From: a virus
Lineage: Duplodnaviria; Heunggongvirae; Uroviricota; Caudoviricetes
Direction: 5' to 3' (one strand)
Virus record (IMG/VR): IMGVR_UViG_2690316153_000010
DNA length: 8,177 bases
Part shown: positions 1 to 8,177 of the stretch, in pieces
Numbering within the stretch: position 1 is the stretch's first letter
Layout of the letters: each line of letters begins with the position of its first letter
Notes under the pieces: model-generated
Told to the model about the DNA's origin: nothing
Databases searched by the model: none
The model's input: the letters and a program-made list of their open reading frames with translations, nothing else
Position numbers and translations under genes: made by a program

Positions 1-25
1 CATCAATGACCATCAGATTATTCAT
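1..25 (-). CDS. 5-prime end only (8 codons, MNNLMVID) of a second KilA-N-type gene that runs out of the window; partial
   Basis: Bases 1-44 are identical to 1586-1629, which holds the start codon and GAGGAG RBS of the KilA-N gene at 1179-1610. Too short to assess independently. Confidence 0.3.
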
Positions 26-44
26 ACTTCGTTTCTCCTCTTGA

Positions 45-434
45 TCAGGCGGCTGCACCCGCCGTTTTCTCGTACTTACTGATAGTGATCTCGACCTTCC
101 CTTTCGGGATAACCGGTCCCCACTCCACCAGCATTCTTTTCACCTGACTGTCGTCTTCCCACACACCCGCATGGGTCAGGGCGTCAAACAGCGCCTTGTT
201 ATAGTTGTCCAGATCGCGGATCCGGTTATCCGGAGGAAACAACACGATCTCCACTGAAGCAGGTGCCGACGTTGGTTTCGGCAGACGACGTAACTGCTCA
301 ATGATGGCGGCACACGCCGCGCTCTGAAATTTTCGCCCCGCCTCGCTTATCAGGCTCTTACCAGCAAATGCCCCTTTGTTGGGGTGTCGCCAGTACGTGT
401 TCACGCTGGGCGGAAAAGGCAGTATTAGCTTCAT
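45..434 (-). CDS. rusA: RusA-family Holliday junction resolvase (copy 1)
   Basis: 129-aa ORF. Motifs LPFPPSVNTYWRH and DLDNYNKALFDALTHAGVWEDDSQV match the RusA endonuclease family as I recall it. ATGA start/stop overlap with the upstream methyltransferase gene. Confidence 0.88.
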   Translation of the reverse strand: MKLILPFPPSVNTYWRHPNKGAFAGKSLISEAGRKFQSAACAAIIEQLRRLPKPTSAPASVEIVLFPPDNRIRDLDNYNKALFDALTHAGVWEDDSQVKRMLVEWGPVIPKGKVEITISKYEKTAGAAA

Positions 435-1084
435 GCCACCATCTCCCTGACCAGTTTTTCCGCCTGCTGGCGAACCTGCGCCAGAAATGCCTCACCACAT
501 GCCTCAAGTTCATCGCGCCCGATGTAGCTGATTGCCGGTCCCTTCCAGGTCTTGTCGAAAACAGCAATAGCACCAGCGAAGAAAGCACCTGTTGGCACCT
601 GCTTTTCGTCTTTCGGGATAAACCAGGCAGGCAGTTCAAAACCAATACGCCCGCGAATAAAAGCAATATGATCTGCACCTTCCGGCCACCACACTTCGCC
701 GGTGGCAGCTTTGATCAGGAAAACATAGCGCCCGCCTTTATCACGCATGGCACTGGCATGCTTCATGATGTAACGCATGCCGGTGATGTATTGCCCCTCA
801 TGCTGACTGGCGCGGCTGTACGGGGGATTGCCAAAGGCAGCACCTTTAAGCTCCGCAAGACGTTCTGACCAGTCATGCGCCAGCGCGTTGTCTTCCGCCG
901 TGTAATACGCGGCACATTTGGCGTTATCACCGTCAGTGAACAGATCCAGAACAAACGGACCAAACAAGGTGTTAATTCCCCAGAAAATGTTGTCCGGCGT
1001 GCGCCACTGATCGCCCACTTCCTTCAGTTCATGGGCTGGTTTGTTCCGCAGTTCTACCAGCGCCTGGCAATATTTATTACTCAT
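431..1084 (-). CDS. Phage Dam-like N6-adenine DNA methyltransferase (copy 1)
   Basis: 217-aa ORF starting MSNKYCQ. Contains the NPPY catalytic motif (FGNPPYSR) typical of N6-adenine methyltransferases. TAATG overlap with the upstream remnant ORF. Confidence 0.8.
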   Translation of the reverse strand: MSNKYCQALVELRNKPAHELKEVGDQWRTPDNIFWGINTLFGPFVLDLFTDGDNAKCAAYYTAEDNALAHDWSERLAELKGAAFGNPPYSRASQHEGQYITGMRYIMKHASAMRDKGGRYVFLIKAATGEVWWPEGADHIAFIRGRIGFELPAWFIPKDEKQVPTGAFFAGAIAVFDKTWKGPAISYIGRDELEACGEAFLAQVRQQAEKLVREMVA

Positions 1085-1176
1085 TAAGCCCCCACGTAAA
1101 AAGCATCCGCAATGTCTCCGGAAGTACAGCCCGGATGGGCTTCAATGAATTTCTGAACGTCATTTAACAGACTCAT
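1084..1176 (-). pseudogene. 30-codon in-frame deletion remnant of the PerC-like gene found intact at 2992-3480
   Basis: Translates MSLLNDVQKFIEAHPGCTSGDIADAFYVGA. The first 26 and last 4 residues equal the termini of the 162-aa protein at 2992-3480. Copy-2 bases 3008-3403 (396 bp, 132 codons) are absent here. Confidence 0.5.
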
Positions 1177-1178
1177 GA

Positions 1179-1610
1179 TCACCCCCTGAATCCTGCCGGG
1201 ATCTGGCTGTAGTCCACGTTGTCGTAACTGGCTTTGAAGTACGGGTCTTCACGTTTTTCTGTGTGCGTGCTGACGGACGGCGATAAGCGCAGGGAAAGCT
1301 CATCCCATTTTTCCCGCAACTTCGACGGGCTGATCCACATTGCATAGGCATACACCAGTTCCTTGCAGACATACGTTCCCCGTTCATTTCCCCCATGAAT
1401 CACACTCACCGGGTCAACACCCAAATTCTGGGTGTTGGTCAATTCATGAACAAGCTCAACAGTTTGTTGGCTGGAAAGAAACTTTCCTGGCTCCTTGGTT
1501 CTGGCATTTGCACCAGATGCTACTGCTGCGCGATGCAGATCGTTCAGGCTGTAACGCCCATAAGCATCACGACGAACTTCAATACCATCAATGACCATCA
1601 GATTATTCAT
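1179..1610 (-). CDS. KilA-N domain protein, chimeric: KilA-N N-terminal domain fused to the C-terminal ~50 aa of the replication-initiator-like protein
   Basis: ORF 1179-1643 trimmed to the ATG at 1610, which has a GAGGAG RBS 9 nt upstream. GTYVCKELVYAYAMWISP resembles the KilA-N signature. Bases 1179 to about 1330 are near-identical to 3483 to about 3640. Confidence 0.7.
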   Translation of the reverse strand: MNNLMVIDGIEVRRDAYGRYSLNDLHRAAVASGANARTKEPGKFLSSQQTVELVHELTNTQNLGVDPVSVIHGGNERGTYVCKELVYAYAMWISPSKLREKWDELSLRLSPSVSTHTEKREDPYFKASYDNVDYSQIPAGFRG

Positions 1611-1629
1611 ACTTCGTTTCTCCTCTTGA

Positions 1630-2019
1630 TCAGGCGGCTGCACCCGCCGTTTTCTCGTACTTACTGATAGTGATCTCGACCTTCCCTTTCGGGATAACCG
1701 GTCCCCACTCCACCAGCATTCTTTTCACCTGACTGTCGTCTTCCCACACACCCGCATGGGTCAGGGCGTCAAACAGCGCCTTGTTATAGTTGTCCAGATC
1801 GCGGATCCGGTTATCCGGAGGAAACAACACGATCTCCACTGAAGCAGGTGCCGACGTTGGTTTCGGCAGACGACGTAACTGCTCAACTATTGCTGCGCAC
1901 GCCGCGCTCTGGAATTTGCGCCCCGCTGCGCTTATCAGACTCTTACCAGCAAACGCCCCTTTGTTGGGGTGTCGCCAGTACGTGTTCACGCTGGGCGGGA
2001 AAGGCAAGATCAGCTTCAT
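1630..2019 (-). CDS. rusA: RusA-family Holliday junction resolvase (copy 2)
   Basis: 129-aa ORF differing from copy 1 at 2 residues (E31A, I45V). Same motifs. ATGA overlap with the upstream LexA-like gene. Confidence 0.88.
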   Translation of the reverse strand: MKLILPFPPSVNTYWRHPNKGAFAGKSLISAAGRKFQSAACAAIVEQLRRLPKPTSAPASVEIVLFPPDNRIRDLDNYNKALFDALTHAGVWEDDSQVKRMLVEWGPVIPKGKVEITISKYEKTAGAAA

Positions 2020-2342
2020 ACTTTCAGGCCCCTCTCATGTAACCAGTGGGCTGCACGCAGCCTGGCGTTTTCCTCACCGGCAAGCAGTGCGCGGATAATC
2101 CCGACCGCCTCGCTGTCGTCGTCCTTCACCGCGGTATGAAGAGTTATCCCCCGGGCCACGCCACGCTTTATCGTGATGACGCCTTTTTTCTCCAGTGCGC
2201 GAAGATGCTCCACCGCTGCATTCACCGAACGGTATCCCAGCATGGTTGCCACCTCCTGATTGGTTGGCGGAAAGCCACGTTCTTGCTGGTAAGAAATCAG
2301 CATATCCAGCACCTGCTGCTGGCATTGAGTTAACGTCGTCAT
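2016..2342 (-). CDS. LexA N-terminal DNA-binding-domain-like protein with no S24 peptidase domain
   Basis: 108-aa ORF. Residues 4-66 (LTQCQQQVLDMLISYQQERGFPPTNQEVATMLGYRSVNAAVEHLRALEKKGVITIKRGVARGITL) align with the LexA winged-helix domain ([65 protein letters not shown]). No Ala-Gly cleavage site and no Ser/Lys dyad. ATGA overlaps at both ends. Confidence 0.7.
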   Translation of the reverse strand: MTTLTQCQQQVLDMLISYQQERGFPPTNQEVATMLGYRSVNAAVEHLRALEKKGVITIKRGVARGITLHTAVKDDDSEAVGIIRALLAGEENARLRAAHWLHERGLKV

Positions 2343-2992
2343 GCCGCCATCTCCCTGACCAGTTTTTCCGCCTGCTGGCGAACCTGCGCCAGAAAGGCCT
2401 CACCACATGCCTCAAGTTCATCGCGCCCGATGTAGCTGATTGCCGGTCCCTTCCGGGTCTTGTCGAAAACAGCAATAGCACCAGCGAAGAAAGCGCCTGT
2501 CGGCACCTGCTTCTCGTCCTTCGGGATAAACCAGGCTGGCAGTTCAAAACCAATACGCCCGCGAATAAAAGCAATATGGTCTGCATCTTCCGGCCACCAA
2601 ACTTCGCTGGTGGCAGCTTTGATCAGGAAAACATAGCGCCCGCCTTTATCACGCATGGCACTGGCATGCTTCATGATGTAACGCATGCCGGTGATGTATT
2701 GCCCCTCATGCTGACTGGCGCGGCTGTACGGGGGATTACCAAAGGCAGCACCTTTAAGCTCCGCAAGACGTTCTGACCAGTCATGCGCCAGCGCGTTGTC
2801 TTCCGCCGTGTAATACGCGGCGCATTTGGCGTTATCACCATCAGTAAACAGATCCAGAACAAACGGGCCAAACAGGGTGTTAATTCCCCAGAAAATGTTG
2901 TCCGGCGTGCGCCACTGATCGCCCACTTCCTTCAGTTCATGGGCTGGTTTGTTCCGCAGCTCCACCAGCGCCTGGCAATATTTATTACTCAT
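2339..2992 (-). CDS. Phage Dam-like N6-adenine DNA methyltransferase (copy 2)
   Basis: ORF 2339-3025 trimmed to MSNKYCQ at 2992 by comparison with copy 1 and the TAATG overlap with the upstream stop. 4 amino-acid differences from copy 1. NPPY motif present. Confidence 0.8.
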   Translation of the reverse strand: MSNKYCQALVELRNKPAHELKEVGDQWRTPDNIFWGINTLFGPFVLDLFTDGDNAKCAAYYTAEDNALAHDWSERLAELKGAAFGNPPYSRASQHEGQYITGMRYIMKHASAMRDKGGRYVFLIKAATSEVWWPEDADHIAFIRGRIGFELPAWFIPKDEKQVPTGAFFAGAIAVFDKTRKGPAISYIGRDELEACGEAFLAQVRQQAEKLVREMAA

Positions 2993-3480
2993 TAAGCCCC
3001 CACGTAATTCCCTGACAGATACCACTCTTCACCCGATGCAGCGCGCTTGCTGCTTTTCCGTAAACACCGCTCACGACGCGCAAGAAAATTGTTTCGCTCT
3101 TGCTGGGAGTGGCTTTCACGGAATGCCGCCATCCACACCGTTGCAGCACGACGGTATAAGCCCCTGGACTCCAGTTCTTCCGCCTGGCGGGTCAGGCACA
3201 AAATCACCCGGGGATCGTTAGTGCCGACATAGAAATTGCGCACAGGTCTGGATTCACGAACTGGTTGCGGTTCCGGCTCCTGCGGTATCTCAGTCAGCCG
3301 CGGGAAATGTCTGCGTGTATCCCCTTCACAACGGTGAGCCACACGCCCACTCTGACGTAACTTGCTTGCTGACTGCAGAACGCGCTGTCGTGAGTAACCT
3401 GCAAAAGCATCCGCAATGTCTCCGGAAGTACACCCCGGATGGGCTTCAATGAATTTCTGAACGTCATTCAAAAGACTCAT
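2992..3480 (-). CDS. Hypothetical regulator, possibly PerC-family-like
   Basis: 162-aa ORF (track ORF 2992-3486 trimmed to MSLL, since the upstream stop is at 3483-3485). The segment AEELESRGLYRRAATVWMAAFRES...ERNNFLARRERCL resembles the PerC-family motif as I recall it. Family assignment is tentative. Confidence 0.5.
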   Translation of the reverse strand: MSLLNDVQKFIEAHPGCTSGDIADAFAGYSRQRVLQSASKLRQSGRVAHRCEGDTRRHFPRLTEIPQEPEPQPVRESRPVRNFYVGTNDPRVILCLTRQAEELESRGLYRRAATVWMAAFRESHSQQERNNFLARRERCLRKSSKRAASGEEWYLSGNYVGA

Positions 3481-3482
3481 GA

Positions 3483-4424
3483 TCACCCCCTGAATCCTGC
3501 CGGGATCTGGCTGTAGTCCACGTTGTCGTAACTGGCTTTGAAGTACGGGTCTTCGCGTTTTTCGGTGTACGTGCTGACGGACGGCGATAAGCGCAGGGAA
3601 AGCTCATCCCATTTTTCCCGCAGCTTCGACGGGCTGAGCACGTTACGGCACCAGAACGGATCGCGACTGACGCGGCTGTACATCTCGCAGATTTGTTTAT
3701 GAGTACGACCATCCTGCACACACATCAGGCGAATTTCGTTTGCCCAGGCTGTCCAGTTCGGTTCTTTGGGACGAACCACCTCGCCGTCACATTCGGCGGC
3801 ATGCTCGTACAGGGCGATGATTTTTTTCCAGAGCCACTGTGCGCAGGTCAAATCATCCTGCGTCCCCCACTGGCGCTTTTTAGGGCTGAATACAACCGCA
3901 TCAGGATGGCGAGTTAAAAAATCCTGTTCAGCCGTCTGCGTGTCCGGTTGCGAAGCGTCCGGACGAGAAGTTTTTTTATCTGACGGATCATGTTTTGATT
4001 TTACTGACGGATCCCCACCAGATTCTGACGGGTGAAAACCCGCTTTTTTGCCAGATTTCGACGCATCAAATTTTGACGGGTCAGATTTTGATGCGTCAGA
4101 TTTTGACGGGTCAGAATCTGACAGTTGAGAAAATGCCGCTGCCTGAAGCTTCGCAACGTTAAGCTGATAAACATTCGACGCATTGCGGTTACCCTGGCGA
4201 CGCGCCCTACGCGTTAACCAGCCTTCTGCTTCCAGCCGTGCGATAGCCGTTCTGACGGTACTCATCCCCGCGCCAATCTGGCGGGCAATGGTTTCAATTG
4301 ATGGCCAGCACACACCTTCGTCATTACTGAAATCAGCCAGGCGGGCCATAATTGCCACGCTGGATAATTTCATGCCTGATGCAGCGCAACCATCCCATAC
4401 ATAGCCGGTTAATTTAGTGCTCAT
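3483..4424 (-). CDS. Replication initiator-like protein: N-terminal HTH/winged-helix domain, low-complexity DPSKS repeat linker, C-terminal tail shared with the KilA-N gene
   Basis: 313-aa ORF. N-terminal segment (GYVWDGCAASGMKLSSVAIMARLADFSNDEGVCWPSIETIARQIGAGMSTVRTAIARLEAEGWL) looks like the HTH domain of phage replication initiators. Internal tandem DNA repeats resemble lambda O-type iterons. Position downstream of cro/cII-like genes fits. Confidence 0.65.
   Translation of the reverse strand: MSTKLTGYVWDGCAASGMKLSSVAIMARLADFSNDEGVCWPSIETIARQIGAGMSTVRTAIARLEAEGWLTRRARRQGNRNASNVYQLNVAKLQAAAFSQLSDSDPSKSDASKSDPSKFDASKSGKKAGFHPSESGGDPSVKSKHDPSDKKTSRPDASQPDTQTAEQDFLTRHPDAVVFSPKKRQWGTQDDLTCAQWLWKKIIALYEHAAECDGEVVRPKEPNWTAWANEIRLMCVQDGRTHKQICEMYSRVSRDPFWCRNVLSPSKLREKWDELSLRLSPSVSTYTEKREDPYFKASYDNVDYSQIPAGFRG
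3975..4127. repeat. Iteron-like 15-bp tandem repeats (consensus AGATTTTGACGGGTC, core TGACGG); candidate origin of replication inside the initiator gene
   Basis: Five contiguous 15-bp units at 4053-4127, plus three degenerate copies at 3975-3989, 3996-4013 and 4021-4035 interspersed with A/T runs. In the coding frame they give the pentapeptide repeat DPSKS/DASKS. Confidence 0.6.
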
Positions 4425-4433
4425 GACCGACCT

Positions 4434-4772
4434 CTATTTCCCTGAATTTACGACGAAACTGTTCGAGCGGGCTGAAGCACTCATGCTCATAGCCTTCGCG
4501 GAGGTAGATAACACGTTGTGTTTCCGGCTCCCAACGAATGACTCTGACGGGCACTCCGTAGTGATCTTTGAACCAGCGGTTAACTTGTCGCAAAGGACTG
4601 TCTCCTTCTGCCGGTTGAAATCACCCACAGCCCACTCTGCAAAGCTGTGGGTTACAATTTCCCTGTCACCTGGTACATTCACTGCATAGCAATACTCCAC
4701 CTTCGCTTTTCCACCCGGTACAGGAAGCGCAATCAGTTGCGAGCGACGGTAGTGTGTTGTTAAACTGTTCAT
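4434..4772 (-). CDS. Hypothetical protein; C-terminal half may be out of frame (possible frameshift or pseudogene)
   Basis: 112-aa ORF with GGAGA RBS 9 nt upstream. The last ~50 residues are S/T/A-rich and low in complexity, while the -1 frame (4414-4620) is open for 68 codons, protein-like, and ends overlapping the next gene start. Confidence 0.4.
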
Positions 4773-5365
4773 GCGTTAGTTTCTCCACAGTCACGACACG
4801 CCACGGCGCCCGGAGCTGCACACTCGCGGGCGTCATTACTTTCTGAAATGCAAAAAATTTTGTAGACCAGTGCTGCATGCTCCTGCAGCTTCGAAATTGA
4901 GAGGTACAGCTCGTCGTTAATTGCTGTCTTCTCATGCGGTTCCACTACACCGTCTTCAATTGCTGAACGAATCTGTTTTGAATAACTGCCGATCTGTTCA
5001 ATGACTTCCAGCAGGCGCTGGTTAATATCGGCGTTGTCCACATCCTCGACGTCAGGAAGAGACACAAAGACGCCATTTGCAGACTGCGCCACAGCGTCAG
5101 CAATGAAGTGAGTTCCACCAGCACGTTGCAAAATCATTGCCCATCCCAGCGGGAAAATCTGATCGCCATCGGCACGAAGGCGGTTAAATAATGCGTTCTC
5201 TGTTACATCCAGCCAGTCAGCTGCTTCAGCGTAACCACCCGGCAACTTTGCGATAGTTTTTCTGACAGCTTTCACGTACCACTCAGGCTGTTTTTCTACT
5301 TTCCAGTGATGCTTACCCACGGTTAGCCTCATCGTTCTGTGGTTTCTGTTAATCGATTTATCCAT
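4769..5365 (-). CDS. CII/YdaT-like regulator (positional cII equivalent)
   Basis: ORF 4769-5434; start uncertain (candidate ATGs at 5365, 5377, 5332), chosen to limit overlap with cro. HTH-like segment [22 protein letters not shown]. Lies directly downstream of the Cro/YdaS-like gene. Family assignment by recollection only. Confidence 0.5.
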
Positions 5366-5558
5366 TAGATTTTTCATAAAGCTCAGGTTTAAATGGCAAC
5401 CGTCCGCAAGTTCTATATGCAGCTTCTGCTGCACGTCCTTTTGGAATTAACTGGCCCGGACGGTTTCGCCACTGATAAACGGCTTCAGTTGTTATGCCGA
5501 AAAAAGCAGCAACTTTCTCAATACTGCCGAAGTAGCTTTCGATATCGTCAGTTGTCAT
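5358..5558 (-). CDS. Cro/YdaS-like HTH regulator
   Basis: 66-aa ORF transcribed divergently from the repressor. GGAGGG RBS 4 nt upstream of the ATG. HTH-like segment SIEKVAAFFGITTEAVYQWRNR. Confidence 0.7.
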   Translation of the reverse strand: MTTDDIESYFGSIEKVAAFFGITTEAVYQWRNRPGQLIPKGRAAEAAYRTCGRLPFKPELYEKSNG

Positions 5559-5655
5559 ACGCCCTCCAAACTAAGTTTTGTTAGATGCTAATTACAAATC
5601 TATCTTTGGTCAATAAAAACTAAGATTACTTAGCGATTAAAGAAATGGTGCTCCT
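5559..5655. promoter_or_regulatory. Divergent immunity promoter/operator region (pR for cro, pRM for the repressor) with CTAA-N6-TTAG operator palindromes
   Basis: Operator-like sites CTAAGTTTTGTTAG (5571-5584) and CTAAGATTACTTAG (5620-5633), plus overlapping TTAGatgCTAA (5581-5591). Minus-strand -35 TTGACC (5608-5613) and, after a 17-bp spacer, -10 TAGCAT (5585-5590) upstream of cro. Confidence 0.5.
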
Positions 5656-6282
5656 ATGGAAACGGTTGGTCAGCGTATAAAAGCTCTGAGAAGAGTTACC
5701 AGAACGTCCCAGAAAGAATTGGGTAAATTTTGTGGAGTAAGCGACGTTGCTGTGGGGTACTGGGAGAAAGACATCAATACCCCTGGCGGGGAGGCACTTT
5801 CGAAATTAGCGAAGTTCTTCAATACGTCAATAGATTACATTCTTTACGGTGCTGAGTTTGAAGGCAAACTCGTCACAAACATGCGCAGAGTTCCTGTAAT
5901 ATCGTGGGTTCAGGCTGGGCAGTTTACTGAGTGCAGGGCAGCAGAAGTGTTTAGTGAAGTGGACAAGTGGGTAGATACATCATTAAAGGTTGGTGATAAC
6001 TCATTTGCATTAGAGGTTAAAGGTGACTCCATGACTAACCCTAATGGCCTCCCAACAATACCAGAAGGCGCAACAGTGATTGTAGATCCAGATGCAGAAC
6101 CTCGTCATGGAAAAATAGTCATCGCTCGACTTGATGGAACAAACGAAGCTACAGTAAAAAAATTAGTCATCGATGGCCCTCAAAAGTTTTTAGTGCCATT
6201 AAATCCTCGGTATCCCAACATCCCTATCAATGGTAATTGCCTTATCATTGGTGTAGTCAAAGGAGTTCAATACGAACTCTAA
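5656..6282 (+). CDS. cI-like prophage repressor: N-terminal XRE-type HTH plus C-terminal S24 (LexA-like) autopeptidase domain
   Basis: 208-aa ORF. HTH at the N-terminus, Ala-Gly cleavage site in WVQAGQF, catalytic Ser in KGDSM and Lys in TVKKL. Divergent from cro. Confidence 0.9.
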   Translation: METVGQRIKALRRVTRTSQKELGKFCGVSDVAVGYWEKDINTPGGEALSKLAKFFNTSIDYILYGAEFEGKLVTNMRRVPVISWVQAGQFTECRAAEVFSEVDKWVDTSLKVGDNSFALEVKGDSMTNPNGLPTIPEGATVIVDPDAEPRHGKIVIARLDGTNEATVKKLVIDGPQKFLVPLNPRYPNIPINGNCLIIGVVKGVQYEL

Positions 6283-6304
6283 GACCTCTCTTCTCTAACT
6301 AAGG

Positions 6305-6337
6305 CACCGAACCAAGAAAAGTTTGGTGTTTTCTCTT
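6305..6337 (+). terminator. Candidate intrinsic terminator downstream of the repressor gene
   Basis: Stem CACCGAAC (6305-6312) pairs with GTTTGGTG (6321-6328) including one G-U, with an 8-nt loop, followed by TTTTCTCTT. Confidence 0.35.
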
Positions 6338-6364
6338 GCCATGATAACTAAGTTAAGTTAGATT
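6336..6364 (+). promoter_or_regulatory. Candidate early-left promoter (pL-like) with overlapping operator (OL-like)
   Basis: -35 TTGCCA (6336-6341), 17-bp spacer, -10 TAGATT (6359-6364). The operator CTAAGTTAAGTTAG (6348-6361) has the same CTAA-N6-TTAG architecture as the cro/cI intergenic sites. Confidence 0.35.
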
Positions 6365-6447
6365 TTATATCAAAGATAACGAACAGGCAGGACGCCCACG
6401 AAGTAGCCGCCTGGGGCATATGAAGTCCAGGATGATTCGTTAGCAAC

Positions 6448-6471
6448 AAAAAAGCGCCCTACAGGACGCTT
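6448..6471 (-). terminator. Intrinsic terminator for the minus-strand gene 6510-7001
   Basis: On the minus strand: AAGCGUCC, loop UGUA, GGGCGCUU (8-bp GC-rich stem with one G-U), then a U-tract (plus-strand A-run 6448-6453). Lies about 40 nt past the stop codon. Confidence 0.55.
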
Positions 6472-6472
6472 A

Positions 6473-6485
6473 GCTCTTTAACAAT
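6473..6485 (+). promoter_or_regulatory. boxA-like antitermination motif (GCTCTTTAACAAT)
   Basis: 13 of 13 match to the core of the E. coli rrn boxA as I recall it (TGCTCTTTAACAATTTA). Plus-strand, downstream of the candidate pL and just after a hairpin. Confidence 0.4.
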
Positions 6486-6501
6486 CTGGATATCCACAAC
6501 A
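6483..6501. repeat. Left arm of a 19-bp inverted repeat flanking the gene 6510-7001
   Basis: AATCTGGATATCCACAACA; its reverse complement TGTTGTGGATATCCAGATT matches 7044-7062 at 18 of 19 positions. Core TGGATATCCA is itself palindromic. Confidence 0.6.
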
Positions 6502-6509
6502 GTAGTAAT

Positions 6510-7001
6510 CTACAGATTGCCGTTAAGTTTTCTGGACAACTCCTCAATGGATGGAGGCGATACGTAATCCGGATTTTTATTCATCAGAAACTTATTTTCA
6601 CAGTGGAGGCACCTGCTTTTATGAAAAAGCTCATCTTCGCTAACCGGGAATGGTTGAAGTATCGATACTATCTTTTGTCCAAAACATTTTGGGCAAAGAT
6701 GCATGGTTATGCTGCCACCGTTCACGATTACCTCCTTCGAGTATACAAAAGTACCCGACTCAAGTTGGTTAAGGATATAGCCTTCCGTCTGAGCCTCAAA
6801 GTTTTCGAATTCTGCAATTTTAGCTTTGAGAGAAGCATTTATTTCTTGATAAGAGCCCACCAGTTCAACGAGAGACACGCATTCGCGCTGAATAGACGCA
6901 AGCTTTGAGTTCAGCTCACCAATAGCCGCATTTACTTCAGCTTGAGTTTTTGCCTCGTTCATTAGTTTTGCAATCTGGGCTGTTTCACGAATAGCCGTCA
7001 T
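6510..7001 (-). CDS. Hypothetical coiled-coil plus zinc-ribbon protein (moron in the rexAB-equivalent position); function unknown
   Basis: ORF 6510-7289 trimmed to the ATG at 7001 (163 aa); an alternative GTG at 7025 has an AAGAG RBS. N-terminal heptad-like helical region, then CPKC and CLHC about 20 residues apart. AT-rich relative to flanks. Own terminator; opposite orientation to neighbours. Confidence 0.6.
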   Translation of the reverse strand: MTAIRETAQIAKLMNEAKTQAEVNAAIGELNSKLASIQRECVSLVELVGSYQEINASLKAKIAEFENFEAQTEGYILNQLESGTFVYSKEVIVNGGSITMHLCPKCFGQKIVSILQPFPVSEDELFHKSRCLHCENKFLMNKNPDYVSPPSIEELSRKLNGNL

Positions 7002-7043
7002 TGCTGCCGTTAATTCAGCGATCACATTGAATACTCTTATTGT

Positions 7044-7062
7044 TGTTGGGGATATCCAGATT
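7044..7062. repeat. Right arm of the 19-bp inverted repeat flanking the gene 6510-7001
   Basis: TGTTGGGGATATCCAGATT, an inverted match to 6483-6501. Sits 19-40 nt upstream of the candidate start codons of the minus-strand gene. Confidence 0.6.
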
Positions 7063-7072
7063 AACCGAATCC

Positions 7073-7093
7073 TTGTTGTTGGGGAATAACCAG
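7073..7093. repeat. Direct-repeat copy of the right inverted-repeat arm
   Basis: TTGTTGTTGGGGAATAACCAG versus TTGTTGTTGGGGATATCCAG at 7040-7059. The 13-bp core TTGTTGTTGGGGA is perfect in both, 33 bp apart. Confidence 0.5.
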
Positions 7094-7312
7094 GTCCACC
7101 TCGCCTGATGTGGCTAAAAGCAGGCACATAACAGCTAAGTATTTTCAACCAGAGAGAATCCTTAGCGTTGTGGTGAATGCGGCTCAGCGCACGCGGGTTA
7201 AGGTTGAGGCTGACAGTCGACCTTCTGTGGATACCCACCCGCCTGGTGTGCAACCTTCGCCAGGCACCGGGAGGCACCCGGCACCACAACTTTATGCTGT
7301 GTGTAGTCCTGG

Positions 7313-7359
7313 CGGTACCAGTTTGTACCCTTGCTTCCGGCTGGTACCGTCCTTTTTTG
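7313..7359 (+). terminator. Terminator-like hairpin in the GC-rich untranslated leader of the early-left operon
   Basis: CGGTACCAG (7313-7321) pairs with CTGGTACCG (7341-7349) around a 19-nt loop, followed by TCCTTTTTT (T-run 7354-7359). The large loop makes this tentative. Confidence 0.3.
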
Positions 7360-7495
7360 CAAAACAGAGAAGAGCATCACCGGACGACGGGCTCATAACC
7401 CAATCCATCCGGGCGGCTGCCACCGCAGGTGTTCTTCTCTGTTTTGTGGAGAAACCAACCGACCTTGCAGGGTCGATATGATGAGGAGCAGCAAA

Positions 7496-7858
7496 ATGGC
7501 TAGCGAACGCAGTACTGATGTGCAGGCATTTATCGGGGAGCTGGACGGCGGCGTATTTGAAACCAAAATCGGCGCAGTTCTCAGTGAGGTCGCTTCCGGT
7601 GTGATGAACACGAAAACCAAAGGGAAGGTCTCACTCAATCTGGAAATCGAACCGTTTGATGAGAACCGTGTGAAAATCAAACACAAACTCTCATATGTTC
7701 GCCCAACTAACCGCGGGAAAATTTCCGAAGAAGACACCACCGAAACGCCGATGTATGTCAATCGCGGTGGTCGCCTGACTATTCTGCAGGAAGACCAGGG
7801 ACAATTACTGACTCTTGCCGGTGAACCTGACGGAAAACTCCGCGCAGCAGGTCGTTAA
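7496..7858 (+). CDS. Hypothetical early-left protein (120 aa, hydrophilic, acidic)
   Basis: ORF 7331-7858 trimmed to the ATG at 7496, which has a GAGGAG RBS (7484-7489) 6 nt upstream. No arginine-rich N-terminus, so not N-like. Confidence 0.6.
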   Translation: MASERSTDVQAFIGELDGGVFETKIGAVLSEVASGVMNTKTKGKVSLNLEIEPFDENRVKIKHKLSYVRPTNRGKISEEDTTETPMYVNRGGRLTILQEDQGQLLTLAGEPDGKLRAAGR

Positions 7859-7923
7859 TATCGTTCGTAATAAACTGATTATTTATCTCATCACTGAATA
7901 TCTTTATATAGTGAGGACTTATT

Positions 7924-8177
7924 ATGTCTCAGAACTTAGACGCAACCGCAATTAATCAAATCCATGCCCTTATTTCTGCTCAGGGTGTTAATGAAATTAT
8001 CAGTAAGATTGGTGCCGATGCTGTGGCATTGCCTGAGAATTTCCGCATTCATGATCTGGAAAAATTTAATTTAAATCGCTTCCGTTTCCGTGGTGCGCTT
8101 TCCACTGCCAGCATCGATGACTTTACCCGTTATTCTAAAGATCTTGCAGATGAAGGCACCCGCTGCTTTATCGATGC
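7924..8177 (+). CDS. Hypothetical early-left protein, 3-prime truncated by the window edge
   Basis: ATG at 7924 with a GAGGA RBS upstream. Open to the end of the window (84 codons seen). AT-rich. Confidence 0.5.

What the first reader, a model, noticed from the sequence alone, without database searches (positions are those of the whole stretch)
1..3480. Tandem, diverged duplication of the RusA/methyltransferase module with cassette-level differences
Bases 1-1084 correspond to 1586-2015 plus 2339-2992. The RusA copies differ at 2 of 129 residues and the methyltransferase copies at 4 of 217, with scattered synonymous changes, so this is not a collapsed or duplicated assembly of one locus. The copies differ by whole units: LexA-like insertion in copy 2, a 396-bp in-frame deletion of the PerC-like gene in copy 1, and the KilA-N fusion. 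The window starts mid-repeat with another KilA-N start at 1-25, so a further unit may lie to the left.
Basis: seen in the sequence. Interest (0 to 1): 0.5.

Follow-up and report, generated by a model that had tools for sequence, protein, structure and literature searches.

The report
Out-of-register hybrid joint between two prophages
The repeated RusA/methyltransferase block is real in this sequence, but it is not a duplication that diverged in place: it is the same module from two different lambda-like prophage lineages, joined out of register at a 10-base shared word, seen only in this one short-read draft contig and so not confirmed as real DNA.

Summary
Bases 1-434, 431-1099 and 1099-1333 match 1586-2019, 2339-3007 and 3403-3637 at 96.5-97.0% without gaps.

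Window 1324-8177 is 99.87% identical, in one gapless piece, to an ordinary single-copy prophage (order O-PerC-Dam-LexA-RusA-KilA-N). Unit 1 (1-1333) is 99.85% identical to a different prophage lineage (O'-dPerC-Dam-RusA-KilA-N). The two units therefore descend from two parent phages. The "cassette differences" (with or without LexA, the 396-bp PerC deletion) are alleles already circulating in E. coli prophages.

The only new feature is the joint at 1324-1333, GACGGGCTGA. This is the single longest word shared by the KilA-N gene and the O'-to-RusA' region. It fuses KilA-N residues 1-95 in frame to the last 48 residues of O'. The joint is absent from 5,426 complete E. coli genomes, 50,697 phage records and three contig collections, and the fusion protein is a singleton among about 15 billion proteins.

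The window is an entire 8,177-bp contig of draft assembly GCA_001284965.2. Most likely it records a recent microhomology-mediated illegitimate recombination between two related prophages (about 0.6). An assembly chimera cannot be excluded without reads. Interest is modest.

The parts
1..1333 (-). Unit 1 ('B-type' module): 3' end of O', PerC remnant, Dam', RusA', start of KilA-N'
   Evidence: One gapless piece at 99.85% (2 mismatches, at 171 and 224) to intact single-copy prophages of strains fS25a and Z1323CEC0019, sister draft CYEI01000024 and others.
1324..1333 (.). Recombination joint: 10-nt microhomology GACGGGCTGA shared by the KilA-N gene and the O' gene
   Evidence: Alignment of the joint with both parental contexts. 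It is the only shared same-strand 10-mer, and no 11-mer is shared, between KilA-N and the B-type O'..RusA' region. Absent from all collections searched.
1179..1610 (-). In-frame fusion ORF (143 aa): KilA-N residues 1-95 plus the last 48 residues of O'
   Evidence: Translation. KilA-N Pfam hit cut at profile position 92 of 107. Protein CTX95474.1 is a one-member cluster on one contig.
1084..1182 (-). 32-aa in-frame remnant of the PerC/YfdN gene (396 nt missing; deletion joint at about 1099)
   Evidence: The same remnant is annotated as a pseudogene in fS25a and Z1323CEC0019 and is common in other genomes.
431..1084 (-). Dam' : phage N6-adenine methyltransferase, copy 1 (217 aa, NPPY motif)
   Evidence: PF05869, E=5e-44. 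The exact protein is seen on 85 other contigs, always single-copy in the 10 contexts read.
45..434 (-). RusA' : Holliday-junction resolvase, copy 1 (129 aa, DLDN motif)
   Evidence: PF05866, E=4e-15. Start overlaps the Dam' stop (ATGA), with no LexA-like gene between them.
1..25 (-). First 8 codons of a second KilA-N gene, cut by the contig end
   Evidence: Reverse complement reads ATGAATAATCTGATGGTCATTGATG. Aligns with 1586-1610.
1..301 (.). Stretch identical to 1586-1886. At 171 and 224 unit 1 carries the unit-2 (A-type) alleles, not the B-type ones
   Evidence: Either a gene-conversion tract or an assembly path re-entering the A-type sequence; unresolved.
1586..3637 (-). Unit 2 ('A-type' module): 3' end of O, PerC, Dam, LexA-like, RusA, start of KilA-N
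   Evidence: Part of window 1324-8177, which is 99.87% identical (9 mismatches in 6854) in one gapless piece to the UC4224 prophage. The same single-copy order covers at least 80% of the query in 1,674 complete genomes.
1630..2019 (-). RusA, copy 2
   Evidence: PF05866.
2016..2342 (-). 108-aa protein consisting of a LexA DNA-binding domain only; present in unit 2 only and bounded by ATGA stop/start overlaps
   Evidence: PF01726, E=3e-19. Sequence.
2339..2992 (-). Dam, copy 2
   Evidence: PF05869, E=3e-44.
2992..3486 (-). PerC-family gene (yfdN), full length, 164 aa
   Evidence: PF06069. Annotated as yfdN in RefSeq genomes.
3483..4424 (-). O-like replication initiator (313 aa). Its last 155 nt (3483-3637) belong to the repeated segment
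   Evidence: HTH_36 and weak DnaD_N / RP-C hits. Annotated 'DNA replication protein O' in related phages.

Best explanation
The locus is a hybrid joint between two related lambda-like prophages of the SfV / SfII / mEp460 group.

Parent A supplied the immunity region, the O-like initiator, PerC, Dam, the LexA-like gene, RusA and the first 95 codons of KilA-N (window 8177 down to 1324). Parent B supplied the last 51 codons of its O' gene, an already deleted PerC remnant, Dam', RusA' and, presumably, a full KilA-N', DUF968, Q and the late genes (window 1333 down to 1 and beyond).

The two genomes were joined by RecA-independent short-homology (illegitimate) recombination at the 10-nt word GACGGGCTGA. 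The crossover was 1,585 bp out of register, so the segment from the O C-terminus to the KilA-N N-terminus is present twice, once from each parent.

Because the out-of-register exchange duplicates rather than deletes, no gene function is lost:
- Both Dam genes and both RusA genes are intact.
- The stop/start overlaps that couple the genes are kept.
- The early-right transcript can still run through to Q.
- The only casualty is parent A's KilA-N, truncated into an in-frame KilA-N::O'-tail fusion that is probably inert.

Two 1.3-kb direct repeats at 97% identity should be lost by homologous recombination, so the structure is expected to be young and short-lived. That fits its being unique.

Shown: the repeat, the two parentages, the microhomology, the reading frames and the uniqueness. 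Inferred: that the joint exists in the cell's DNA, the recombination pathway, what lies left of base 1, and expression.
For: - Window 1324-8177 is 99.87% identical in one gapless piece to the single-copy UC4224 prophage.
- Bases 302-1333 are 100% identical, and 1-1333 is 99.85% identical, to B-type prophages. In those, the segment sits between a full 330-aa O' and a full 269-aa KilA-N.
- The KilA-N part next to the joint carries A-type bases at 1455, 1536 and 1564. It is 100% identical to other complete-genome prophages carrying the usual RusA/KilA-N arrangement.
- The joint lies exactly on the only shared same-strand 10-mer between the two partner regions. No longer shared word exists. This is the signature of short-homology recombination. 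RecET-promoted recombination between 5-13 bp sequences is cited in PMC2327257.
- Ten bases are too few for a de Bruijn-graph assembler (k of 21 or more) to bridge without reads that carry the joint. Repeat-induced path errors between two collinear prophages also keep register, and this joint does not (inference).
- Genomes with two to four copies of this module are common, so partner prophages do meet. Both complete genomes with the closest B-type unit carry a second copy of the module.
- Illegitimate recombination followed by selection is one of the debated models for lambdoid mosaicism (PMC2327257 and PMC3945230).
Against: - The window is one whole 8,177-bp contig of a draft assembly, and both ends lie in sequence that is repeated in E. 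coli genomes.
- The joint and the fusion protein occur nowhere else: 0 of 5,426 complete genomes, 0 phage records, 0 hits in three contig collections, and a singleton among about 15 billion proteins. There is no independent confirmation.
- The last 224-301 nt of unit 1 carry A-type rather than B-type alleles. This could mean the assembler looped back into the A-type path.
- Some scaffolding or merging tools join blunt contig ends on overlaps of about 5-15 nt (my own knowledge; the pipeline used for this assembly is unknown).
Confidence: 0.62

Rival explanations
1. Assembly chimera. The strain carries an ordinary A-type prophage and an ordinary B-type prophage at separate places. The contig was produced by a scaffolder, gap-closer or contig-merging step that joined two contig ends on a 10-nt overlap. 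No molecule in the cell has the KilA-N::O' joint.
For: Short-read draft contig of only 8.2 kb with both ends in repeated prophage sequence. A sister assembly of the same accession series carries an intact B-type prophage whose sequence is identical to unit 1 from 302 to 1333. The joint is a singleton everywhere. A join on the longest available shared word is also what an overlap-based merger would produce. The terminal A-type alleles at 171 and 224 look like a path re-entering the other haplotype.
Against: The shared word is only 10 nt, below the k-mer or overlap used by common assemblers. Graph errors between two collinear 97%-identical prophages switch haplotype in register, whereas this joint jumps 1.6 kb backwards. 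Neither partner has an obvious reason for a contig break at exactly this point: A/B homology continues past 3637 to about 3979, and no boundary lies at 1334. The other suspected end effect, at 7984-8121, proved to be natural variation, since complete genomes match 6900-8177 at 99.9%.
Confidence: 0.25
2. The joint is real but the contig threads the 301-nt identical stretch wrongly. For example, the joint belongs to a B-type (or mosaic) prophage that duplicated its own segment, or to a separate defective remnant, and the A-type unit 2 is attached to it only by assembly.
For: 1-301 and 1586-1886 are identical. That is longer than typical short reads, so the connection across this stretch rests on read pairing only. 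Unit 1 ends in A-type alleles.
Against: The 252 nt between the identical stretch and the joint (1334-1585) carry A-type, not B-type, bases at three of four informative sites. A-type sequence therefore lies on both sides of the identical stretch, and the connection drawn in the contig is the parsimonious one.
Confidence: 0.07
3. Tandem duplication in place, followed by divergence and by local cassette gain and loss.
For: Head-to-tail arrangement. Differences are mostly synonymous (28 synonymous against 6 non-synonymous codons).
Against: Each unit has relatives elsewhere that are ten to twenty times closer than the other unit: 0.13-0.15% against 3% divergence. The LexA and PerC differences are shared with those relatives. 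Three per cent divergence in place would require the repeat to survive for a very long time, yet no other genome has it.
Confidence: 0.03

Closest known systems
Single-copy early-right (replication to Q) module of SfV / SfII / mEp460 / PhiR29-type lambdoid phages and CPS-53-like (yfdN...yfdS) E. coli prophages
   Same: Same genes in the same order (cI, cro, cII-like, O-like, PerC/YfdN, Dam, LexA-like, RusA, KilA-N). Identity is 96-98% to isolated phages and 99.9% to resident prophages.
   Different: All of them carry the module once. None has the KilA-N::O' joint or two Dam/RusA pairs.
Short-homology (illegitimate) recombination in E. coli and lambda, such as RecET-promoted recombination between 5-13 bp sequences (cited in PMC2327257) and the formation of specialised transducing phages (my own knowledge)
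   Same: Two non-allelic sites joined at a short shared word (10 nt here) with no site-specific signal.
   Different: Here both partners are phage genomes of the same family. The exchange is out of register within a homologous module, giving a partial duplication made of two different alleles. The pathway (RecET, Red, replication slippage) is not identified.
Mosaic joints of lambdoid phages (modular or illegitimate-recombination model; discussed in PMC2327257 and PMC3945230)
   Same: A sharp switch of parentage between two lineages inside the early region.
   Different: Joints that persist are generally found at or near gene boundaries and leave one copy of each function (my own knowledge of the model). 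This one lies inside two genes, makes a fusion ORF and leaves redundant genes, as expected of a fresh product not yet tidied by selection.
Repeat-induced chimeric contigs in short-read assemblies of poly-lysogenic E. coli
   Same: Small contig, ends in repeats, structure not seen in any finished genome.
   Different: The breakpoint shares only 10 nt and is not collinear. That is not the usual form of such artefacts.

Membership tests
In-situ tandem duplication with later divergence | The two copies are each other's closest relatives | tested here: not met
   The units are 97% identical to each other, but 99.85% and 99.87% identical to two different single-copy prophage lineages.
In-situ tandem duplication with later divergence | Structural differences between the copies arose at this locus | tested here: not met
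   The LexA-less and PerC-deleted forms are found as such in other genomes. All four combinations exist, with match spans of 1333, 1656, 1729 and 2052 bp.
Illegitimate (short-homology) recombination joint between two phage genomes | Novel joint between non-allelic sites with only a few bases of shared sequence | tested here: met
   A 10-nt GACGGGCTGA overlap. Flanks are unrelated beyond it. It is the unique longest shared word.
Illegitimate (short-homology) recombination joint between two phage genomes | The two flanks trace to distinct parental genomes that lack the joint | tested here: met
   A-type flank and B-type flank. The joint is absent in 5,426 complete genomes and 50,697 phage records.
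Illegitimate (short-homology) recombination joint between two phage genomes | The joint exists physically in the organism's DNA | not testable with these tools
   Reads of GCA_001284965.2 are not available here. Only the one contig carries it.
Assembly chimera | Breakpoint lies in a repeat at least as long as the assembler's k-mer or overlap, and the path stays collinear | tested here: not met
   Only 10 nt are shared at the joint, and the path jumps back 1,585 bp. The 301-nt identical stretch is at the contig end, not at the joint.
Assembly chimera | No reads or read pairs support the breakpoint | not testable with these tools
   No read data.
RusA Holliday-junction resolvase (PF05866) | Full-length profile match above the curated cut-off; acidic DLDN motif | tested here: met
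   Both copies score 56-57 bits against a cut-off of 22.8, covering profile 1-123 of 124. 'RDLDNYNK' is present in both translations. Activity was not tested.
Phage N6-adenine methyltransferase (PF05869, Dam) | Profile match above the cut-off; NPPY catalytic motif | tested here: met
   Both copies score 150-151 bits against a cut-off of 28.1. 'FGNPPYS' is present in both. Activity and target site were not tested.
KilA-N domain protein (PF04383) | Complete KilA-N domain plus the C-terminal part of the 269-aa protein | tested here: not met
   The fusion ORF keeps profile positions 5-92 of 107 and lacks the C-terminal 174 residues, which are replaced by 48 residues of O'.

The most novel reading that the evidence does not exclude
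The contig captures a fresh, still untidied product of illegitimate recombination between two co-resident lambdoid prophages. The joint is out of register and inside genes, sits at a 10-nt microhomology, and has kept every function by duplicating rather than deleting. This is the kind of intermediate that the illegitimate-recombination model of phage mosaicism predicts but that is seldom seen in nature. A further, much less likely extension (a few per cent) is that the KilA-N::O'-tail fusion has acquired a function of its own, for example tethering a DNA-binding domain to whatever the O C-terminus contacts.
Probability: 0.55. Interest if true: 0.4.

Novelty: new member of a known kind. Interest (0 to 1): 0.25.

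Why it matters
If the joint is real, it is a natural example of how lambda-like phages shuffle modules. It would show two parents identifiable to within 0.15%, a crossover at a 10-nt word inside two genes, and a redundant two-allele duplication that should later collapse into a clean mosaic. That bears on the debate between illegitimate and relaxed homologous recombination as the source of phage mosaicism (PMC2327257, PMC3945230). It is a single anecdote, not a new mechanism.

If the joint is an artefact, it is a useful warning. Draft assemblies of strains with several related prophages can contain non-collinear joins that gene callers then turn into 'new' fusion proteins, here CTX95474.1. No new gene family, defence system or RNA is involved.

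Tried and rejected
1. Looked for the joint elsewhere.
- A 651-nt query spanning it found nothing in 5,426 complete E. coli genomes. The only two places with at least 80% coverage, CFS3273 and ETEC1706, are single-copy deletion variants, not duplications.
- Nothing in 50,697 phage records.
- Exact-pattern scans of viral, genome and metagenome contig collections found nothing.

2. Looked for the fusion protein. It is a singleton.

3. Searched the literature for the assembly accessions, to learn the assembly pipeline. No paper was found.

4. Suspected that the right contig end (alleles at 7984, 8097 and 8121) was also a haplotype switch. Rejected: complete genomes match 6900-8177 at 99.9%.

5. 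Tried to infer the assembler's k-mer from the distance of the contig ends to the nearest A/B differences. This was inconclusive and was dropped.

6. H29 (EC20017429), listed with 'methyltransferase x2', is an IS600 insertion within a single-copy module, judged from the span and feature list only. It was not opened.

7. Rfam gave no hit in the window. PADLOC and Pfam added nothing for the fusion, the PerC gene or the 171-aa ORF next to the repressor; the LexA-like gene gave only a marginal PADLOC match (CARF3--CARF, E=0.00047).

8. I could not check whether the same assembly also holds intact copies of both parents, because the tools cannot list the other contigs of one assembly.


Full report
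**What is in the sequence**

All genes of the left 5.5 kb lie on the minus strand and form the early-right operon of a lambda-like prophage. Reading right to left:
- cI-like repressor, 5656-6282, plus strand
- Cro, 5358-5558
- CII-like, within ORF 4769-5434
- DUF4222-like small ORF
- O-like initiator, 3483-4424
- PerC/YfdN, 2992-3486
- Dam methyltransferase, 2339-2992
- a protein consisting only of a LexA DNA-binding domain, 2016-2342
- RusA, 1630-2019
- an ORF that starts as KilA-N, 1610 down to 1179
- a 32-aa PerC remnant, 1084-1182
- a second Dam, 431-1084
- a second RusA, 45-434
- the first eight codons of another KilA-N gene, 25-1

Self-comparison gives three gapless matches: 1-434 with 1586-2019 (96.5%), 431-1099 with 2339-3007 (97.0%), and 1099-1333 with 3403-3637 (97.0%). 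The repeat therefore runs from the last 155 nt of the O gene to the start of KilA-N, ending at 3637 rather than 3480.

RusA differs at 2 of 129 residues and Dam at 4 of 217. There are 28 synonymous and 6 non-synonymous codon differences in total. The substitutions are patchy: none in 1-301, then 15 in 302-426.

**Where the window comes from**

The exact fusion protein is encoded on one record only, CYED01000074.1 of assembly GCA_001284965.2. That record is 8,177 bp long, so the window is the entire contig of a draft assembly. The left end lies in the 301-nt stretch that is identical in both units. The right end lies inside yfdQ, a gene present in up to five places per E. coli genome. Nothing can therefore be said from this record about what flanks it.

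**The two units have different parents**

Window 1324-8177 aligns in one gapless piece to the prophage of strain UC4224 with 9 mismatches in 6,854 bases (99.87%). That prophage has the module once, in the order O, PerC, Dam, LexA-like, RusA, KilA-N (269 aa), DUF968, Q. The query covering both units is at least 80% covered in 1,674 of 5,426 complete E. coli genomes, and in all but one of the 30 best hits it collapses onto a single copy of about 2.4 kb (the exception, H29, spans 3.6 kb with an IS600 listed).

Unit 1 (1-1333) aligns in one gapless piece, with two mismatches, to a different lineage. This lineage is found in strains fS25a and Z1323CEC0019, in a sister draft of the same accession series (CYEI01000024), and in several other assemblies and metagenome contigs. 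There the segment is also single-copy. It is preceded by a full 330-aa O' gene and followed by a full 269-aa KilA-N gene, DUF968 and Q.

So the units are 3% apart from each other but about 0.15% from their respective relatives. The divergence is inherited, not acquired in place.

The two 'cassette' differences are inherited as well. The PerC remnant and the direct Dam-RusA junction are present as such in the B-type prophages. Among the 40 best matches to unit 1 in complete genomes, all four combinations of LexA present or absent and PerC intact or deleted occur, with match spans of 1333, 1656, 1729 and 2052 bp. The LexA-like gene is bounded on both sides by ATGA stop/start overlaps, which gives a clean gene-boundary polymorphism. 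The PerC form is a true internal deletion that keeps the first 28 and last 4 codons of the gene.

**The one new feature: the joint**

Aligning 1274-1384 with both parental contexts shows the following. The sequence follows the B-type O' gene up to ...CTTC GACGGGCTGA. It follows the KilA-N gene from GACGGGCTGA TCCAC... onward. The ten bases at 1324-1333 are common to both, and the flanks are unrelated beyond them.

That word is the only same-strand 10-mer shared between the KilA-N gene and the B-type O'-to-RusA' region, and no 11-mer is shared. In both genes it encodes Ser-Pro-Ser in the same frame. The product is therefore an in-frame 143-aa protein made of KilA-N residues 1-95 and the last 48 residues of O'.

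On the KilA-N side, the bases at 1455, 1536 and 1564 are A-type, not B-type. Window 1324-1700 is 100% identical to prophages in several other complete genomes that carry the usual RusA/KilA-N arrangement.

The joint is absent from every collection I could search:
- 0 of 5,426 complete genomes; the only two places with at least 80% coverage are single-copy deletion variants
- 0 of 50,697 phage records
- 0 exact matches in viral, genome and metagenome contig collections
- the fusion protein is a one-member cluster among about 15 billion proteins

**Most likely explanation**

Two related prophages or phages of the SfV / SfII / mEp460 group met in one cell. This is plausible because genomes with two to four copies of this module are common. 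They were joined by short-homology, illegitimate recombination at the 10-nt word, 1,585 bp out of register.

An out-of-register exchange in this direction duplicates the interval instead of deleting it. The recombinant keeps a complete set of functions:
- immunity, origin and initiator from parent A
- presumably KilA-N', DUF968, Q and the late genes from parent B
- two intact Dam genes (NPPY motif) and two intact RusA genes (DLDN motif)
- preserved stop/start overlaps, so downstream expression should continue

Only parent A's KilA-N is destroyed. The added 1.6 kb is small relative to a phage genome of about 45 kb.

Direct repeats of 1.3 kb at 97% identity are substrates for homologous recombination, which would delete one unit together with the joint. 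The structure should therefore be transient, which fits its uniqueness.

The pathway (RecET-like, Red-like or replication template switching) is not identified. RecET-promoted recombination between 5-13 bp sequences is cited in PMC2327257. Whether illegitimate or relaxed homologous recombination dominates phage mosaicism is debated, and De Paepe et al. favour the latter (PMC3945230).

**Why an artefact is not excluded, and why I rank it second**

Points for an artefact:
- It is a small draft contig ending in repeats.
- There is no independent occurrence.
- A sister isolate carries an intact B-type prophage identical to unit 1 over 302-1333.
- The two sites where unit 1 departs from B-type references (171 and 224) carry the unit-2 alleles. 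This could be the assembler re-entering the A-type path, or a real gene-conversion tract.

Points against an artefact:
- Ten shared bases are below the k-mer or overlap sizes of usual assemblers.
- Errors between two collinear, 97%-identical prophages switch haplotype in register, not 1.6 kb backwards.
- Neither parent has a homology boundary at the breakpoint that would make contigs end there.
- A suspected second end effect at the right end turned out to be ordinary allelic variation.

My estimates are: real joint as drawn 0.62, chimera 0.25, real joint with wrong threading through the identical stretch 0.07, and in-place duplication with divergence 0.03.

**Comparison with what is known, and verdict**

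Every gene belongs to a well-known family, and the module is a common single-copy block of E. coli and Shigella lambdoid phages. The arrangement is a new instance of a known kind of event, a mosaic joint formed by short-homology recombination. It is unusual only in being inside genes, out of register and still carrying the redundant duplicate.

It is not a new system. Interest is modest (0.25), rising to about 0.4 if read data confirm the joint.

Noticed in passing
window 4052-4126 (inside the O-like gene 3483-4424, minus strand): An array of 4-5 copies of a 15-nt unit, CAGATTTTGACGGGT. It looks like replication-origin iterons lying inside the initiator gene, as in lambda, and encodes a DPSKSDASKS-type repeat in the protein. 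It lies outside the duplicated segment, so only one origin is present.
   Followed up: partly
window 6510-7025 (minus strand): A 171-aa ORF between the cI-like repressor and yfdP, in the lowest-GC part of the window (0.41-0.43). It has a coiled-coil-like N-terminal half and two CxxC pairs. It has no Pfam or PADLOC family. Its position is comparable to rexAB/sieB-type accessory genes. It is annotated as a hypothetical protein in UC4224.
   Followed up: partly
window 2992-4424: The O-like initiator is followed directly by the PerC/YfdN gene. The window has no P-, DnaC- or DnaB-like helicase-loader gene, unlike lambda's O-P pair.
   Followed up: no
window 171 and 224 (equivalent to 1756 and 1809): These are the only two positions where unit 1 differs from nearly all B-type relatives, and at both it carries the allele of unit 2. 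As a result, 1-301 is identical to 1586-1886. This is either a gene-conversion tract between the units or an assembly path effect at the contig end.
   Followed up: partly
window 2016-2342 (minus strand): A 108-aa protein made of a LexA DNA-binding domain with no S24 peptidase domain. It is present or absent as a clean gene-boundary cassette (ATGA overlaps on both sides) across E. coli prophages. Its function is unknown.
   Followed up: no
L002 (CFS3273) 5307-6026 and L003 (ETEC1706) 5295-5711: Other prophages carry single-copy deletion variants of the same module (PerC fused to a truncated RusA, or PerC running straight into KilA-N). This shows that the region is prone to internal rearrangement.
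   Followed up: partly
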